From Fibrobacterales bacterium (lineage in GTDB: Bacteria > Fibrobacterota > Fibrobacteria > Fibrobacterales > JAOPTW01): DNA of 58,017 nt. Position numbers: made by a program. Positions 6,001 through 12,000 of the stretch are shown piece by piece; the first letter of the stretch is position 1, and each line of letters begins with the position of its first letter. The stretch covers positions 1 through 58,017 of the forward strand of contig JAOPTX010000058.1 of the NCBI GenBank assembly GCA_051532055.1, read 5' to 3'.

Positions 6001-9000
6001 GGAGGTAACGTTGAGCCCAATGCAGTTATTATCGCTAAAAAAGATATTATTGTTAAAAAAACAATCCGCTGTGGAAAGAGCCTTGGAGGCTTTGTAGCAG
6101 GTGGAGATATCACTGCTGGCACAATACTTAATAGTAGAATTGAGAACAAAGGCGATGTGTATGTAAAAGATATGATTGCTGATAGTGAAATATTCAGTAT
6201 GGGACATTTTAGCTGTTCGTGGGGCACAATTCTTGGGAGTACCATTGAGGCGGTCAGTGGTATATCGGTAAACAGTATTGGAAAAGAGTCGGGTGTTGGA
6301 CAGAATATTATTATTGCCGGCAATACTGATATTAATGAAGAAGCTCTTGAAAAAGCGGATCAAGGCCTTCTCAATCTAAATAATGAACTTAATCTTATCA
6401 TTAAAAATATTCCAACAAAAACTGAAGAGTCAACTGATGAAAATAAAGAAAGTAACGCAGAGAGATTAAAGAACCTTAATAAAGCACGTGCAGTCCATGT
6501 TGAAGAATTGAATGAAAAGATTAAGGCACTGCAAGAAGAAAAAGAATATTTGGAATCCCATTTACATACGAACCCCGATGCTGTGATCGAAATTCGTGGT
6601 AAAGTGTATCCTACTGCTACGATTATAAATGGTTTAAATCGAATGTTGGTATTTGATGATGTTGAATCTGCATGTTCTCTTGAATATCAGGCTCCCGAAA
6701 TGCCCGAAATGCGCGAAGATACCTAAACTAAAATTCTATTGCAAGCCTTCTTTTAGTAGTATTCCGGATTCAATAACTACCGCGTATAATCCTTCTTTCA
6801 TTGGTGTTTGTAAAAACAATGACTGTGAACCATCTACCGTGAAATCATTGGTTTGACTACCTATATGTTTACCCATAGCATCATATATATGTAACACGTA
6901 CCTTCCAGGTTCTAACACATTTATTGATACATAATCCTTATTCGTGACTTTGTATATAAGTGATACATTTAAATTGTTAGTAGTGTTTTGTTTGAGGTCG
7001 TTAAATATTCCTACAGGACCCTCTGCTGATGGAGTGTTTATACTACTCGATGAAAACTCTTCTTCTTCTTCTTCGTCTATGTCTTTTGAACTTGAACTAG
7101 TATCCTCTATACTACTTGAACTCATTGAAGAGTTTGATGGCTGAGTATCTGACGATTCGACGTTCTCTGATGAGGACTCTGAGGAGGATTCATCTATCGA
7201 ACTTGAAGAAAGTACTACCGGCTCCACAACACTGATGGTAACTTCTGTCTCTGCCTCTATTCCATCTGCATCAGATACTACTAGAGCAAATGTGTAACTA
7301 CCAAGCTCCAAACCTGTAATTATTGGTGATGCTATTTGTGAATCACTTATTAAAGATGAACCACCCGTAACACTTGTCCATTCATAAGTATAGGGACTTT
7401 TTCCACCACTGACCAACCCATTGAGTACTGCTTCAGTTTCCGGCTGTGCAACAACAATATCAGCAGCGCCAACTATAAACTCTCCAGGTAACGCCCGAAT
7501 AGTATTGGTTCTCCAGTCTGCTGTAATTTTCCATTCATCCAACATATCCGTGATATACTGTTCTCCTCCAGCGTCATTCCCCCACAGTGCAGAAGATTGT
7601 CCATCAGTAGTAATAGCCCACATAGCGGATGAGAAACCATATTCGTCTAAGACTGCATGCCATGCATCAGCACTTTCTCCATCGAAAGAGCCTTCAAATT
7701 CACCCTTTCCTCCATTATAATGTGATATTCCCCATTCAGAAACAAAAAATGGAAGCCCATCTTGGAGTGCATCTTTAAAATGTTGCCCTGTCCAACCATC
7801 ATCTACGAAATGGGAGTATGCATAAAAATGCATTACATATGCAGAATTATTACTAGGATCATTAACAGGGTCATTTATAATGCCCCGGAATACCTGCCCA
7901 TAGGAGGGCGTGCCCACCAATATTAAGTTGTCAGACCCTAACTCACGTATATGACCAATAAGTTCGTCTGCATAGTCTTTTACCGGCCCCCATTCGTGTG
8001 GGTCTTCAGTGACGGGCTCATTAAATATTTCGAAAATAATATTATCATATTGACCATATTTTTCTACAGCTTTTGTAAAAAATTCTTTCGCTTCTGGTAT
8101 TTCATCCCAGGCATGATGTGAATGGAAATCTATAATAATATAGACGCCACGAGCAATACATTGGTCAATCACCGTGGTTGCAAACTCAAAGTCTGCAGGC
8201 TTACCGCCGGAGGTAGTCGACACCGCTACTCTCAAAACTTCTGCATCGAAATCATCAACCATTTGATCAACTACTTCTGCGGTCCAAAAGTTTTCACCAC
8301 CCCATTGGTTCCAAGAAAAACTGAGGCCCTTTACCTGCACCATTGCATTGGTATACGGTTTTTTTGAACCAACAAAATATTGGCCCTTTACCTTCATTTC
8401 TCCATATATATCCACAGGCCCTATAGCCTCTGCACTAATCAAACCAAATAAAATAATTGTAAGAACAAATGTTATTTCTTTAATGCGATTACTCATTGAA
8501 ATCCCTTCTAAGATTTATTTAATTAATGAAAACTCTTCGATAGTAAGAGCGTTAAAATATTTTGTATCAAACCAATAATTATAAGTCAATTAATCGACCA
8601 TTTTCATATCGCTTTGTGTAGACCTCTTCATACATCAGGCTTCTCAAAATCGGTGTATCATAACATTGCTGACTCGGTGTCTTTTACCATCCCTGCTGAT
8701 TATGCGTACGTATAATTTGATCGTGTTTAATATATATCAAGAAATACCTCATGTAAGAATTTTACTTTTTTAGGCGTGGTCACCTTTGTCCACACCCATG
8801 GATAAAGCTTTTATCTGAGCAAGATATTGTATATATTTAATGTGACGTACTCAGGTTAGGGTGTAGTAATTGATGGATTCACAAAAGCCAGATGATTTGG
8901 ATGTATTTGATTATCTCGATCCATATCTTTTTTTAACTGATTATTTAGAAAATGAACAGAAAAGAGATTCTTCTTTTAGTCTTCGTTTTTTTGCATTTTG

Positions 9001-12000
9001 TGTCGAAATAGATGCGAGCCTTTTTGTGAAGATTTTAAAGGGTGATCGTCATTTGTCCAAAGTGGGAGTAGAGGCAGTAATTGCTTTTTTTCAATTAGAT
9101 GTAAAATGGATACTTTTTGATACCGTCAGGGCTGAATATTTTAGAGAGCTTGTTTTTTATATTAAAAGTAAAAGAGATACTGATATTCAAAAGCATTTTG
9201 AGAGATTAATGAAAATGCGGCCTTTGAACTCAAGTCAATTGCAGTCTGATCAATATAAATATTTTCAATATTGGTATATTCCTGCTATTCGATCGGCATT
9301 AGATTTTGTGCACTATTCCGATAAAAATGACGCTGAGAAGTTTTCACAATGTTTCTTATCCCCCGTGAGTATAGAAGATGTTATTGATGGCATTGATGTG
9401 CTTGAACGTTTAAAACTTATAACAAGGGACTCTCAAAATAATTTTCGTTCTTCAGAATCTCATATAGGTACAGGTGATAAGTGGCAAAGTAGTGCTATAC
9501 GATTATATCAAAAGAAAACCATTTTATTAAGTAGTGAGAGTATAGACACCGTTCCAAACGAATCTAGAGATATATCAACAGTTACTCTATCACTCAATGA
9601 GGCTCATATAAAAGGGATTAAGGCTATTCTTGCTGATGCACGAAAATCAGTCATACAAAATGTTAATGAGATAAAGTCTGAAGAATGCACAAATGTATAC
9701 CAGTTAAATATGCAGTTCTTTCCAATAGTTAAGGTGAAATAATACATGAAAGATGGAGTAATAATTATATCAATCCTTTTTACGCTTTTAACAGGGTGCT
9801 CTTTGGGTGATCAAGCGGGTACCACTACAGAAACGACAAATGGAATAACTATTAGCGTTGTTGATAGTAATAACGAGCCTGTACCATTTTTAAAAATTGC
9901 TGCGTACACAATCGATCCACTTATTAAAACTATTGCAGATAGTATTGATTATAAAGGGGAGTATACTCTTTCTGATTCTTTAGATATAGATATTCTCGAA
10001 GTATATTCCATTGACTCTACTTTTATGCTTTGGTTTTTAATGCCTGACTCCAAAGAGGTTAAGCTTATTGTAGAGGAATCAGGTTCTTTAATAATACATC
10101 CTGAATTGTATGATTCAACACAGGAATATAATGATGTTTTATTAGAGGGAACTGGTTATACAGCTTCGATGGAGAACGGGAGTTATACCTTTTATCATTT
10201 GCCGCCAGGTAACTATACTGTTTTAGTAGATAGTCTGACTTTAGGTGCAGTAAATATTAAATCAAAAATGCGTATTGATACAAATATAACTTTTCCAATT
10301 GCAACCGAGTTATCCAGTTCCACTGCTATCTCGAGTTCCACAGGTATCTCCAGTTCATCTTGGATGTCTTCGGAAATCAATGATCAAATGATTTCGAGTA
10401 GTTCTCTAGTAACTTTTGCGATTGAATTCGAAAATTTTGAGAATAATGATAATAAACACCTTTGGGCTGATAGTACAAAAAGTACAGGTTGGTACGTCAA
10501 TAAGGATGAAGGAAGTGAGTGGATCAAACCGTCAAATATCGAGACTGTGCACGATGCTGTTGTATTTGATGAGAGTATTAATTCACAAGTTCTCCATATG
10601 GTTTATACTTTGGGAGATTTAGAGACAGTTTTGTTGGGGACGCATTTAGGGGCTGTCGGTACCTCTTTTGATTTAAGCGCAGTTAAGAACATCCACCTAA
10701 AGGTTAAAGGTGATGGTGCTTTTGATGTCGCTGTTGAAAAATTACAAAGTGTCGATGGTGAAACTCAATATGAAATTGCTGAATGGAATGTTAGTGCCTC
10801 ACCAGAGTGGCAAACTGTAGTAATAAACACTGATGATGCTAAAGTAGACCGTCTCAATAATCGGTATCCTTTTGCTGAAATATCAGATTCTATTTCTCTC
10901 TTTTCAATTTTTATCCGATCAGGAACTGAACTGTGGATCGATGATATCGTTTTTGAGAGTTTAACGGGGGAGCTTTTTTAGGAGCTCTTCATGTCGCCCC
11001 CTTTGTCTCAGGTTAAAATGTCCGCTTCGTATTACAAAGACCAAAATCTCTCCTAGGACGTTGCAGGCTAAATGCAAATCCATGAGAGTATCCTCTACGT
11101 AGTCCTCAACAAACTCGGAAAGACTGATCTACAAACCAGTAGAGGTTCAAAGAAAGCTCCCTCAAGCAGGACTAACAACCAGTACACTGTTTATCTGAAG
11201 CAACGCCGATATCTCATAGACACCGAGATACGAGTTAATACCATAACGTACATAGGGACAATGATTCAATTCAAATAGTGTATACCTCTGTATCTATCAC
11301 TGATAGGACTCTGTATGTCAGCAGGGTATTCAGTGTAACCGTTTACACAAAATAGTATAAAATCATTTGCTACCATGTCTGTAGAAGGTGCCCGGTTACA
11401 AATAGCTGAGTTATTCACAGGTGTGCTTGACCTGGCGGGGACAGTTATACATGATATATGCATGCATTTAGTTTGGTTCACAGGTTGTGAACAATAATAG
11501 TGCCAGTTTTAGCGTATATAATTAAAACAAATTTGAAGATTATAAATTTGAAATCTACTTTAACTTAAGGAATATTTATGAAAAAATTATTATTAATGTC
11601 TTCTATGTTTATAGCTTTATTTGGTTGTGCAGAGCAGCCCATTTCACAAAACATTGTAGATGAGTCTGTTTCACAAAATACTAATGAACCCAACTATGAA
11701 GGAATGGAGGCTATTAAAGCTCAATTAGAAGGTGACTCACTATTACCGTATTTTGAATTTGATAAACAAGGAAATAAATTGGAAGTTGATTTTACTGACG
11801 GAAAATTGTTAGCAAAGAAATCTAATTCGAGAACAATTCTTATTTTGGATTCAATTCAGGAATTTGATGAGCTTGAAAAAAAAATAGCATTACGTCTTCA
11901 AAATGATAGTAAATTTAAAAAAAGTATAATGAGGCCATTAGATTACGTTTGTCGTATTTCTCTGTTAGCACTTAACGAGCAGTATGAGTCAATTCAATTG

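What a model noticed while it worked through the whole genome (the two positions that open the first line are those of the whole stretch)
8873..10981. DUF4423/TIGR02147 proteins are double-HTH transcription factors translationally coupled to variable surface lipoproteins [...]
The genome has 50 DUF4423 (TIGR02147) genes; 42 are followed on the same strand within 20 nt (most overlap by 1-17 nt) by a gene for a secreted protein, 36 of them with a lipobox Cys, built from CarboxypepD_reg-like beta-sandwiches, a Ser-rich linker and a variable lectin/CBM-like C-terminus (example g03302+g03303). The fold of the DUF4423 protein is an XRE/HigA-type HTH followed by an ArsR/MarR-type winged helix with no solved full-length relative. 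I read DUF4423 as the phylum's own family of one-gene-one-target transcription factors, each co-translated with the surface glycan-binding lipoprotein it controls: the Fibrobacterota counterpart of the regulator-SusD logic of Bacteroidota PULs; a [...]
Evidence so far: Neighbour analysis of all 50 genes: 42 coupled, gaps -17 to +15; 36 with lipobox; partner lengths 77-851 aa, 33 without any Pfam family, others Laminin_G_3 (5), CarboxypepD_reg, DUF1565, LRR, FISUMP. Relaxed Pfam on two partners: CarboxypepD_reg E 1e-7 and 3.5e-5, Laminin_G_3 2.6e-6, CIA30 0.098. AlphaFold2 of g03302 from 28 paralogues/homologues: mean pLDDT 87, pTM 0.75; Foldseek PDB: no hit with E<=1e-3; local matches to HigA antitoxin HTH (prob 0.90-0.99, 78-104 columns) and CzrA/SmtB winged helix (prob 0.72-0.92, about 107 columns). 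relatives.tsv: DUF4423 in 153/156 Fibrobacterales, 280/295 Fibrobacterota, 1% of Bacteria; DUF4423 next to Laminin_G_3 in 129/156 genomes of the order. Upstr [...]
(Added by a program. Inside this text positions count along the whole contig: contig position 1 is position 1 of the stretch shown here. "Call 12" and the like, gene names such as g00115 and contig names such as C1 are that model's own, and its searches are not shown. The text may have been shortened before it was handed on; [...] marks where a part breaks off. The agent that wrote the report below was given it as the finding of a first reader that could run no searches.)

Follow-up and report, generated by a model that had tools for sequence, protein, structure and literature searches.

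The report
Regulator plus lipoprotein gene cassettes
This marine Fibrobacter relative carries about fifty copies of a two-gene unit, an unstudied DNA-binding protein next to an exported lipoprotein, which is most likely a self-contained switch for one envelope protein each; nothing links it to sugar sensing.

Summary
Window 8873-9742 (+) encodes a TIGR02147/DUF4423 protein and, 3 nt later, 9746-10981 (+) encodes a lipoprotein. The genome has 50 TIGR02147 genes. 42 of the 49 that can be judged are followed within -44..+15 nt by a gene of one lipoprotein family, and 6 of the other 7 have such a lipoprotein divergent or just upstream. The pairing recurs in 59 of 60 loci sampled from 10 other genomes of the phylum.

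Upstream regions carry locus-specific GT-N5..N5-AC palindromes (ours: 8776-8793). These are enriched over shuffles, including in a hold-out set, and similar recognition helices go with similar palindromes.

My best reading (0.6) is a local, autoregulating transcription factor for the adjacent lipoprotein gene. The PUL-like, glycan-sensing reading has no support: most units are bare bicistrons. Translational coupling is not essential, since divergent pairs exist.

A short protein-level tag (S/T-E-x-x-N) after the lipid-anchor Cys is conserved phylum-wide and unexplained.

This scan had already noted the same cassette on other DNA: 17 notes in at least 11 genomes. I found no published functional work on the family.

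The parts
8776..8793 (.). Candidate operator: imperfect palindrome GTGGTCA-cctt-TGTCCAC, 80-97 nt upstream of the ATG.
   Evidence: The position comes and the pattern hit. The related regulator L049 in genome G040 has a similar recognition helix and carries GTGGGCA-tttc-TGCCCAC at -83. This class of palindrome is enriched over shuffles. No binding has been shown. A weak terminator-like hairpin at 8784-8807 overlaps it.
8809..8837 (+). Candidate promoter: TTTTAT, 17 nt, TATATT.
   Evidence: I read it from the sequence. The promoter scan did not list it because the first hexamer is too weak. This is inference only.
8873..9742 (+). TIGR02147/DUF4423 regulator gene, 289 aa. XRE-type HTH at aa ~14-105, winged helix at ~115-204, hood-like C-terminal part at ~205-285.
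   Evidence: Family scores are. The structure model is and the fold matches.
9746..10981 (+). Partner lipoprotein gene, 411 aa.
   Evidence: The ORF is. The protein had no relative in the protein search other than itself. The model has pLDDT 61.
9746..9799 (+). Signal peptide with lipobox L-T-G-C18.
   Evidence: Read directly from the translation. 41 of 42 paralogous partners have the same layout by eye.
9815..9844 (+). Conserved tag A-G-T-T-T-E-T-T-N-G (aa 24-33), just before the first beta strand.
   Evidence: The alignment of 41 partners is A3. 35 of 41 have Asn in the same column. Third codon positions carry 0.04-0.43 bits against up to 2.0 bits at first and second positions, so selection acts on the protein. 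The same tag type appears in 10 other genomes.
9833..10234 (+). Beta-sandwich region, precursor aa ~30-163, transthyretin/CarboxypepD_reg-like.
   Evidence: VIA-align gives 3e8v Z 9.8, the SusC NTE domain 9hfj_A Z 9.7 (80 of 80 residues, rmsd 3.1), and the carboxypeptidase D domain 5aq0 Z 9.0. Pfam CarboxypepD_reg scores 3.5e-5, below the family's cut-off.
10307..10405 (+). Ser/Thr-rich linker, aa 188-220.
   Evidence: Composition count. The model is disordered here.
10451..10969 (+). C-terminal jelly-roll, CBM-like, precursor aa ~236-408.
   Evidence: VIA-align gives CBM11 1v0a Z 8.2 (100 aligned), 2w5f Z 7.7, CBM29 1gwk Z 7.6, and the CIA30-like 7zkq_A Z 7.5. Atlas features score 0.92-0.94 to galactose-binding-like, CBM and CIA30 clusters. 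The first half of the domain is modelled with pLDDT below 50.
26874..27713 (+). Second TIGR02147 gene of the window, 279 aa.
   Evidence: DUF4423 at 2.7e-31.
27716..28336 (+). Its coupled partner, 206 aa: lipobox, tag G-G-T-D-V-D-N-A, and one CarboxypepD_reg-like domain.
   Evidence: CarboxypepD_reg at 3e-6.

Best explanation
Each TIGR02147/DUF4423 protein is a cytoplasmic, probably dimeric, transcription factor. It controls the promoter of its own small unit, which consists of its own gene and the adjacent gene for one exported lipoprotein.

It reads a locus-specific operator, often a GT-N5-(1-9)-N5-AC palindrome and sometimes direct repeats. The operator lies roughly 20 nt upstream of the -35 region, a place more typical of activators than of repressors.

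Gene duplication carried promoter, regulator, signal peptide, tag and first beta-sandwich together. The recognition helix and the operator diverged afterwards, and the C-terminal binding domain of the lipoprotein was exchanged freely.

The lipoprotein is an envelope protein with a stalk (sandwiches plus Ser-rich linker) and a variable binding head.

- Shown: family membership, fold, pairing, co-duplication, and enrichment and co-variation of the palindromes.
- Inferred: DNA binding, autoregulation, the sign of regulation, and the location of the lipoprotein.
- Unknown: the input signal.
For: **Fold.**
- XRE/HigA-like HTH: VIA Z 8.0-8.3 (2eby, 3trb); Foldseek probability 0.90-0.97.
- ArsR/SmtB/PadR-like winged helix: Z 7-7.9.
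- 29 of 125 relatives hit HTH_31 or HTH_3 by sequence.
- There are weak profile matches to C.BclI and the CI repressor at E of about 0.2.

**Pairing.**
- 42 of 49 regulators are coupled downstream.
- 3 more have the lipoprotein divergent and 3 have it upstream. Only 1 of 49 has no adjacent lipoprotein.
- 30 of 30 loci in 5 other genomes and 29 of 30 loci in 5 further genomes have a coupled ORF.

**Bicistron.** 27 of 42 units have no third same-strand ORF within 150 nt.

**Co-duplication.** Regulator against partner N-terminus gives Mantel r=0.36 (p<=5e-4). Regulator against partner C-terminus gives r=0.12. Partner N-terminus against partner C-terminus gives r=0.06 (p=0.08).

**Operators.**
- In this genome, GT..AC palindromes occur in 13 of 46 upstream regions, against 220 of 1477 control upstream regions (p=0.016). 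Shuffles give 4.6 +/- 2.1, and 0 of 300 shuffles reach 13.
- In 5 other genomes they occur in 14 of 30 regions, against 2.8 +/- 1.6 in shuffles.
- In a hold-out set of 5 fresh genomes they occur in 8 of 30 regions, against 2.0 +/- 1.4, and 0 of 300 shuffles reach 8.
- In the first five comparison genomes 13 of the 15 palindromes lie -70..-102 from the gene start; in this genome the range is -32..-180.

**Recognition helix tracks operator.**
- Our protein and L049 share GTGG(T/G)CA-N4.
- L044, L054 and L056, from three genomes, share GTACTCA.
- L045 and L060 share GTACCTG.

**Promoter layout.** In the printout, eight loci show palindrome, then 17-21 nt, then a TTGACA-like hexamer, then 17 nt, then a TATATT-like hexamer. 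I read this by eye.

**Expression.** RNA-library contigs of the source sample match both genes at 100% identity. This is weak evidence, because DNA carry-over cannot be excluded.
Against: - No binding, expression or genetic data exist for any member.
- Generic palindromes are not enriched in this genome: 41 of 46 against 495 of 600 controls.
- The GT..AC pattern was defined after I had looked at the data. Only the hold-out test is clean, and there only 8 of 30 loci carry it, so most loci have no operator I can name.
- Direct repeats are only modestly enriched: 65% against 38%.
- The promoter layout was read by eye and not scored.
- Three paralogues in one genome share nearly the same helix and half-site, so 'one regulator, one target' is not strict.
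- 13 of 56 lipoproteins of the partner family, 8 of them strong matches, have no adjacent regulator.
- A second DNA-binding-type domain and a strongly conserved C-terminal domain are more than a simple autoregulator needs.
Confidence: 0.6

Rival explanations
1. Export-coupled peptide feedback, working like HetR with PatX or like RRNPP systems. The conserved C-terminal hood-like domain of the regulator binds a short peptide derived from its exported partner, either the S/T-E-x-x-N tag or the cleaved signal peptide. The regulator's activity then reports on the production or export of that protein.
For: - The best structural match of the whole regulator model is the PatS-binding hood domain of HetR: 4ynl_B, Z 8.3, rmsd 2.5, 76 of 76 residues; 4hri_B, Z 7.7.
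- The family's most conserved residues (R232, T238, N279, Q281, F283, P284) lie in that part.
- The partner's short tag is under protein-level selection and is kept across the phylum while the rest of the protein diverges beyond recognition.
- A Bdellovibrio member is coupled to an exported protein of a different type that also carries a G-N motif right after its signal peptide.
- One partner in this genome is only 77 aa: signal anchor plus tag.
- There is a published precedent. PatX has a Sec signal peptide, must be exported, is cut by PatP, and its hexapeptide binds HetR at 88 nM and blocks DNA binding (PMC12756182, passages read).
Against: - Z 8.3 is within the range the tool gives as typical for best hits.
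- There is no sequence-level sign of HetR_C: it is not among the 25 families shown of 138.
- HetR's other domains do not match.
- The hood-like motifs are the same in all 78 regulators compared. That includes the one without a lipoprotein and those whose partners carry variant tags, so there is no co-variation with the tag.
- A tag shared by about 40 paralogues could not give specificity.
- A lipoprotein's mature N-terminus lies outside the cytoplasm, and no importer or protease belongs to the unit.
- The tag sits directly before strand 1 of the sandwich and may simply cap it.
Confidence: 0.12
2. The cassettes are the Fibrobacterota counterpart of polysaccharide utilisation loci: the lipoprotein binds a glycan at the cell surface, and the regulator switches the unit on in response to that glycan.
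For: - The C-terminal domains look like carbohydrate-binding modules or lectins: CBM11, CBM22 and CBM29 at Z 7.6-8.2, and Laminin_G_3 in 6 of 40 partners.
- The N-terminal sandwich resembles the NTE domain of SusC transporters (Z 9.7).
- A GH5 cellulase gene lies divergently upstream of our unit.
- Acidic residues follow the lipid-anchor Cys in 97.6% of partners. From recall, this resembles the surface-export signal of Bacteroidota lipoproteins.
Against: - The unit holds no transporter, CAZyme or sensor: 27 of 42 are bare bicistrons.
- No route is evident from an outside glycan to a soluble cytoplasmic regulator.
- Heads include LRR, FISUMP and DUF1565 domains, and half of the partners show no head family at all.
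- Acidic residues after Cys are also common in other lipoproteins of this genome, at 75.6%.
- In F. succinogenes S85, 40 of 49 quantified lipoproteins went down on cellulose, including four with a CarboxypepD_reg-like domain (PMC6851124, passages read). It is not known whether those four are cassette partners.
- The Bdellovibrio partner is not CBM-like.
Confidence: 0.1
3. An array of bistable switches for surface variation. Each self-activating cassette flips on or off stochastically, so cells display different subsets of about 50 lipoproteins. This would be bet-hedging against phages, grazers or changing surfaces, with no external signal needed.
For: - The operator position upstream of -35 fits activation, and an activator transcribed from its own target promoter is the classic bistable design. 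This is inference.
- Copy numbers are very high: 50 here, and up to 70 scored matches or 89 first-look candidates in relatives.
- The heads are variable and freely exchanged.
- No sensor domain is recognised.
Against: - The sign of regulation is unknown.
- There are no single-cell or expression data.
- I did not look for invertible or slippery sequences beyond the repeat scans, which showed nothing of that kind.
- The conserved C-terminal domain suggests some input.
Confidence: 0.1

Closest known systems
TIGR02147 ('Fsuc_second') / Pfam DUF4423 (PF14394)
   Same: Our protein is a full-length member: 204.8 bits against a cut-off of 50, covering profile positions 3-271 of 272.
   Different: The family has no described function. 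Only one paper in the library holds 'DUF4423': a table row for Bd3700 in a Bdellovibrio proteome (PMC12546842, passage read). No paper holds 'TIGR02147'.
Small XRE-family autoregulators: HigA antitoxins, controller (C) proteins of restriction-modification systems, phage CI/Cro
   Same: The N-terminal HTH fold matches. Palindromic sites lie upstream of the regulator's own promoter, and the regulator is the first gene of a tight operon.
   Different: Our protein is three times larger, with an added winged helix and a hood-like domain. The partner is an exported lipoprotein, not a toxin or an enzyme. PADLOC finds nothing.
HetR with PatS/PatX of filamentous cyanobacteria
   Same: The C-terminal 80 residues superpose on the HetR hood domain over its full length. 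Both systems combine a DNA-binding protein with an exported protein that carries a short conserved motif (for PatX).
   Different: There is no sequence similarity, and the DNA-binding and flap domains of HetR do not match. The motif here lies at the N-terminus of a large lipoprotein, whereas PatX's lies at the C-terminus of a 56-aa peptide. Peptide binding is untested. patX (asl2332; PMC7761841, passages read) is, as far as I recall, not adjacent to hetR.
Polysaccharide utilisation loci of Bacteroidota (SusC/SusD with SusR, hybrid two-component or ECF sigma regulators)
   Same: A regulator gene sits next to a gene for a lipoprotein with a CBM-like head. The partner's sandwich resembles the SusC NTE domain.
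   Different: There is no SusC-type transporter, no SusD fold and no enzymes. The regulator is a soluble one-component protein with no recognisable sensor.
RRNPP regulators with their propeptide genes (Rap-Phr, PlcR-PapR, PrgX)
   Same: An XRE-type HTH regulator is followed, often with overlap, by a gene for an exported product.
   Different: The model shows no TPR peptide-binding domain. The partner is a large protein, and the organisms are Gram-negative.

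Membership tests
TIGR02147 / DUF4423 | Score over the curated cut-off across the whole profile. | tested here: met
   TIGR02147 scores 204.8 bits against 50, over positions 3-271 of 272. PF14394 scores 99.2 bits against 30.
XRE-family HTH (HTH_3 / HTH_31) | Five-helix Cro/CI-type HTH domain. | tested here: inconclusive
   Our protein has no Pfam HTH hit at E<=1. 29 of 125 relatives hit HTH_31 or HTH_3, best 4.1e-5. The fold of aa 14-105 matches HigA, 2eby and DdrO at Z 6.4-8.3.
ArsR/SmtB winged-helix repressors | Winged HTH fold. | tested here: met
   For aa 115-204: CzrA 1r1u Z 7.9, 2oqg Z 7.4, SmtB 8qkf Z 7.3. Foldseek probability is 0.75-0.82. These Z values are middling by the tool's own note.
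ArsR/SmtB winged-helix repressors | Metal-binding sites. | not tested
   I did not compare ligand residues.
HetR | C-terminal hood domain. | tested here: inconclusive
   4ynl_B gives Z 8.3, rmsd 2.5, 76 of 76 residues, 8% identity. HetR_C is not among the 25 Pfam families shown for 125 relatives.
HetR | HetR-type N-terminal DNA-binding unit and flap domain. | tested here: not met
   Full-length HetR 4hri_B aligns only over residues 222-297. The N-terminal parts match XRE and ArsR folds instead.
HetR | Binding of an RGSGR-type peptide. | not testable with these tools
   This needs ITC or a structure.
Bacterial lipoprotein (partner) | Signal peptide ending in a lipobox with an invariant Cys. | tested here: met
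   The sequence reads L-T-G-C18 after a hydrophobic stretch. Cys is the only invariant column among 41 partners. Lipidation itself cannot be tested here.
Polysaccharide utilisation locus | Adjacent SusC-like transporter and SusD-like lipoprotein. | tested here: not met
   The partner and the next two ORFs have no such Pfam family. 27 of 42 units have no third gene.
Carbohydrate-binding module (partner C-terminus) | Beta-jelly-roll fold of CBM11/22/29 type. | tested here: inconclusive
   Z is 7.0-8.2 with 93-106 residues aligned, on a model whose first half has pLDDT below 50. Pfam CIA30 scores 0.098. Sugar binding was not tested.
RRNPP regulators | TPR-type peptide-binding domain after the HTH. 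| tested here: not met
   The model shows a winged helix and a helix-strand-helix-strand part, with no TPR array.

The most novel reading that the evidence does not exclude
DUF4423 proteins may be peptide-gated transcription factors whose C-terminal domain is a distant structural relative of the HetR hood. The short conserved tag, or the cleaved signal peptide, of the exported protein encoded next door would be the ligand. The HetR-PatX principle of a regulator tuned by a fragment of an exported precursor would then operate in tens of copies per genome across Fibrobacterota, Bdellovibrionota and other phyla, as a per-protein export or production feedback.
Probability: 0.1. Interest if true: 0.85.

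Novelty: new variant of a known kind. Interest (0 to 1): 0.62.

Why it matters
- **Size of the family.** TIGR02147/DUF4423 has 19,873 cluster representatives at E<=1e-3 in 1.84 billion proteins. It is probably among the largest regulator families in Fibrobacterota, with 50 copies here and 70 in one relative. No function has been published.
- **A testable function.** The cassette view gives a concrete role, a candidate operator for this very locus, and dozens of natural helix-operator pairs from which a recognition code could be read.
- **Two open puzzles with wider reach.** The phylum-wide tag and the HetR-hood-like domain are unexplained. If they are linked, a signalling principle known only from cyanobacterial development would turn out to be general.

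Tried and rejected
1. **Complex prediction** of two regulator copies with the partner's first 45 mature residues. The verdict was 'no answer': scores 0.17 and 0.01 against a mark of 0.32, and the controls were not folded. This is neither support nor evidence against binding.
2. **Generic palindromes** (7-nt arms, up to 1 mismatch) are not enriched upstream of the regulators in this genome: 41 of 46 against 495 of 600. I dropped this in favour of the anchored GT..AC pattern, which was chosen after seeing the data. I therefore tested it on a hold-out set.
3. **DNA-level conservation of the tag-coding stretch** is rejected. Third codon positions are nearly free.
4. **Co-variation between tag and hood-like motifs.** None was seen.
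5. **Shared operator words between unpaired lipoprotein genes and regulator upstream regions.** I found only 10-14-mers, at about chance level.
6. **Defence system or toxin-antitoxin.** PADLOC gives no hit for either window pair, and the partner is exported.
7. **RNA element.** There is no Rfam match in 8000-12000.
8. **Terminator.** One weak hairpin lies at 8784-8807, against 1.7 expected from shuffles.
9. **Relatives of the partner.** The big protein search found none except the protein itself. Within its own genome, the C-terminus has no relative and the N-terminus has one, at 1.5e-4.
10. **Cross-phylum census.** The search for related loci could not use alignments A2 or A1 because they lack a conserved stretch. 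Only one Bdellovibrio plasmid could be inspected. Of its two copies, one is coupled and one is not.
11. **Co-transcription.** The RNA-library contig 9736-9959 has fewer than 31 letters on the regulator side, so it does not count as bridging. Parts without cover prove nothing.
12. **Scoring the palindrome-to-promoter spacing by script.** This was not run. The layout rests on my reading.

Full report
**What is at the coordinates**

The window is contig C58 of a 5.17-Mb, 181-contig genome, 94% complete. It belongs to a family of its own within the order that holds Fibrobacter. Its DNA was found in a marine metagenome run.

ORF 8873-9742 (+) encodes 289 aa. It scores TIGR02147 'Fsuc_second' at 204.8 bits against a cut-off of 50, and Pfam DUF4423 covers aa 119-284.

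Three bases after its stop, ORF 9746-10981 (+) encodes 411 aa. In order, this protein has:
- a signal peptide ending L-T-G-C18;
- a short acidic stretch;
- the tag A-G-T-T-T-E-T-T-N-G;
- beta-rich sequence;
- a Ser/Thr-rich linker at aa 188-220;
- a C-terminal domain.

The window holds a second such pair at 26874-27713 and 27716-28336.

**Genome-wide check**

The family model finds 52 places, 50 over the cut-off. In my own ORF-based scan, one gene runs off its contig. 42 of the other 49 are followed on the same strand by an ORF of at least 60 aa that starts -44..+15 nt from the stop. The gap is -4, an ATGA overlap, in 16 cases.

By eye, 41 of the 42 partners have a hydrophobic stretch followed by Cys. 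The exception is a 77-aa product that keeps the tag but lacks the Cys. A strict lipobox rule gives 28 of 42, against 351 of 3205 crude genes.

Tight spacing alone is common: 805 of 2109 same-strand neighbour pairs. The identity of the partner is what exceeds chance. An HMM of the partners' N-termini finds 56 ORFs in the genome, and 43 of them lie within 400 nt of a TIGR02147 gene.

The seven 'unpaired' regulators are informative:
- three have a tag-bearing lipoprotein gene divergently upstream, with 104-160 nt between the genes;
- three have one just upstream on the same strand;
- only one has no lipoprotein neighbour, and it sits among response-regulator genes.

Adjacency is therefore kept even where translational coupling is lost.

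27 of 42 units have no third same-strand ORF within 150 nt, and only one has a tightly coupled third gene. The unit is a bicistron.

**Other genomes**

283 of 296 genomes of the phylum have the family. This count includes G000 and the unpublished G253. None of 14 control genomes has it.

In five genomes from five other families, 30 of 30 sampled loci have a coupled downstream ORF. 29 of these start with signal peptide, Cys and a tag such as A-G-x-G-S-E-T-G-N-A.

In five further genomes, 29 of 30 loci have a coupled ORF. Three of these look like spurious frames, and about 25 have the Cys layout.

Outside the phylum I could inspect only one Bdellovibrio plasmid. One of its two members is followed, with a 4-nt overlap, by an exported protein that is not a lipoprotein. 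That protein carries V-I-G-N-G-G-N-E right after its signal peptide and later H-E-L-L-S. The other member is not coupled.

Earlier notes of this scan report the same cassette in at least 11 genomes. I treated them as leads only.

**The regulator**

A profile search finds 19,873 cluster representatives at E<=1e-3. With 125 aligned relatives, AlphaFold2 gives pLDDT 88.9 and pTM 0.78.

Aligning the model to 48,161 chains splits it into three parts:

| Part | Residues | Best matches |
|---|---|---|
| XRE/HigA-type HTH | aa 14-105 | Z 8.0-8.3 |
| ArsR/SmtB/PadR-type winged helix | aa 115-204 | Z 7-7.9 |
| C-terminal part | aa 205-285 | HetR hood domain in complex with a PatS hexapeptide: 4ynl_B, Z 8.3, rmsd 2.5, 76 of 76 residues; 4hri_B, Z 7.7 |

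The HetR hood match is the best match of the whole search. The tool notes that best Z values of 7-8 are common, so this is a lead and not a proof.

By sequence, 29 of 125 relatives hit HTH_31 or HTH_3, and no HetR family appears among the 25 families shown. The family's most conserved residues (R232, T238, N279, Q281, F283, P284) lie in the hood-like part.

**The partner**

The partner has no detectable relative outside its own genome and barely any inside it. A model built from 40 paralogues reaches pLDDT 61. It is confident for aa 17-146 and 291-394 in mature numbering.

The N-terminal sandwich matches transthyretin-like domains, including the NTE domain of a SusC transporter (Z 9.7, 80 of 80 residues). 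The C-terminus matches CBM11, CBM22, CBM29 and a CIA30-like protein at Z 7.5-8.2. This agrees with the Atlas features.

Across 40 partners, Pfam finds CarboxypepD_reg in 21, Laminin_G_3 in 6, and single LRR, FISUMP and DUF1565 heads.

Regulator distances correlate with partner N-terminal distances (r=0.36, p<=5e-4). They correlate little with the C-termini (r=0.12). The partner's N- and C-termini hardly correlate with each other (r=0.06). So the front of the cassette duplicates as a block and the heads are swapped.

**The tag**

35 of 41 partners share an Asn column within S/T-E-x-x-N-x-I/V-A. Third codon positions carry 0.04-0.43 bits, against up to 2.0 bits at first and second positions, so the constraint acts on the protein.

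The tag sits directly before the first strand of the sandwich. It may cap that domain, be a sorting signal, or be a ligand. The hood-like motifs of 78 regulators do not vary with it.

**Operators**

Upstream regions show locus-specific repeated words, but direct repeats are only modestly enriched (65% of 46 against 38% of 400 controls). Generic palindromes are not enriched.

After inspecting the sequences, I defined a GT-N5-(1-9)-N5-AC pattern allowing up to 1 inner mismatch. Because the pattern was chosen after looking, I also tested it on five fresh genomes.

| Set | Loci with pattern | Comparison |
|---|---|---|
| This genome | 13 of 46 | 220 of 1477 control upstream regions (p=0.016); shuffles 4.6 +/- 2.1, 0 of 300 reach 13 |
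| First five genomes | 14 of 30 | Shuffles 2.8 +/- 1.6; 25 of 326 coding windows |
| Hold-out, five fresh genomes | 8 of 30 | Shuffles 2.0 +/- 1.4, 0 of 300 reach 8; exact palindromes 3 against 0.23 |

In the first five comparison genomes 13 of the 15 palindromes lie -70 to -102 from the gene start; in this genome they spread from -32 to -180.

Our locus has GTGGTCA-cctt-TGTCCAC at 8776-8793. It is followed after 15 nt by TTTTAT, then 17 nt, then TATATT at 8832-8837.

A regulator in genome G040 with a similar recognition helix has GTGGGCA-tttc-TGCCCAC. Three regulators from three genomes with another helix type share GTACTCA, and two from one genome share GTACCTG.

In eight loci I read palindrome, then 17-21 nt, then a TTGACA-like hexamer, then 17 nt, then a TATATT-like hexamer. 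This was read by eye and not scored. It puts the site centre near -60, a typical activator position.

**Expression**

Contigs of an RNA library from the same sample as the source DNA match 8868-9131, 9736-9959, 10054-10237 and 10477-10639 without differences, at depth 2-5. DNA carry-over cannot be excluded, and no contig counts as bridging the two genes.

**Reading**

The best-supported explanation is a local transcription factor that controls its own small unit and thereby one lipoprotein (0.6).

The unit has no transporter, enzyme or sensor, and the heads are not uniformly lectin-like. The only proteomic data I found show Fibrobacter lipoproteins mostly going down on cellulose (PMC6851124, passages read).

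The HetR-hood lead, the phylum-wide tag and the published PatX mechanism (PMC12756182, passages read) keep a peptide-feedback reading alive at about 0.1. The lack of co-variation, the topology, and a tag shared by all paralogues speak against it.

**Literature**

A search for 'DUF4423' or 'TIGR02147' returned one paper, which holds only a table row. A search combining Fibrobacter succinogenes, lipoprotein, transcriptional regulator and paralogous found no description of the cassette in the two Fibrobacter papers I opened. I did not open any supplements.

Noticed in passing
window 6736-8496 (-): A GH5 cellulase (Pfam Cellulase 4.1e-44) with a PKD-like domain and a long Ser-rich, acidic linker. 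It is transcribed divergently from the regulator, 376 nt away. Nothing ties it to the cassette.
   Followed up: partly
window 11578-12744 (+) and 12748-13245 (+): A 388-aa lipoprotein and, 3 nt later, a 165-aa exported Tyr/Gly-rich protein that looks like a small beta-barrel. Neither has a Pfam or NCBIfam family. They start 597 nt after the cassette.
   Followed up: partly
window 24628-26592 (-): A 654-aa lipoprotein with a Ser-rich start and three or four repeats carrying a Spondin_N-like motif (Pfam Spond_N 4.5e-10).
   Followed up: no
window 30619-32349 (+): A 576-aa exported protein with an F5/8 type C (galactose-binding-like) domain, a short collagen-like G-x-y run, and a long S-S-I-S-G-G beta-roll resembling ice-binding repeats.
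   Followed up: no
G000 C49:54793-55593 (-) and the ORF after it: One regulator is coupled to a 77-aa product that has a signal anchor and the tag but no Cys and no further domains. A 963-aa ORF follows 37 nt later. It may be a split partner or a mini-protein.
   Followed up: no
G000, e.g. C18:662-2092, C95:6836-8326, C156:920-2386, C42:155073-156611: Eight strong members of the partner lipoprotein family (E<1e-10) have no TIGR02147 gene within 400 nt. The upstream region of the C18 copy contains an 11-mer that also recurs upstream of the related cassette at C9:1985. Matches of that length are expected by chance.
   Followed up: partly
G000 C8:78548-79360 (-): This is the only TIGR02147 gene without a lipoprotein neighbour. 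It lies between genes for response-regulator-like and histidine-kinase-like proteins and keeps all conserved C-terminal motifs.
   Followed up: no
window 8784-8807 (+): A weak terminator-like hairpin (9 pairs, 3 of them G-C) followed by a T-run overlaps the right half of the candidate operator. No + strand gene ends upstream of it.
   Followed up: no
L071/L073 (Bdellovibrio sp. HAGR004 plasmid AP029177.1, 37256-38808 and 47400-48197): The plasmid carries two TIGR02147 members. One also scores HigA at 3.2e-6 and is coupled to an exported G-N-G-G / H-E-L-L-S protein. The other lies tail-to-tail with a 456-aa exported H-E-L-L-R protein.
   Followed up: partly
G281 (complete 5.8-Mb genome of the same class): It has 70 TIGR02147 matches in one genome. 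Three of the six sampled paralogues have nearly identical recognition helices, and two of them show the same half-site GTACCTG. This suggests cross-regulation among paralogues.
   Followed up: partly
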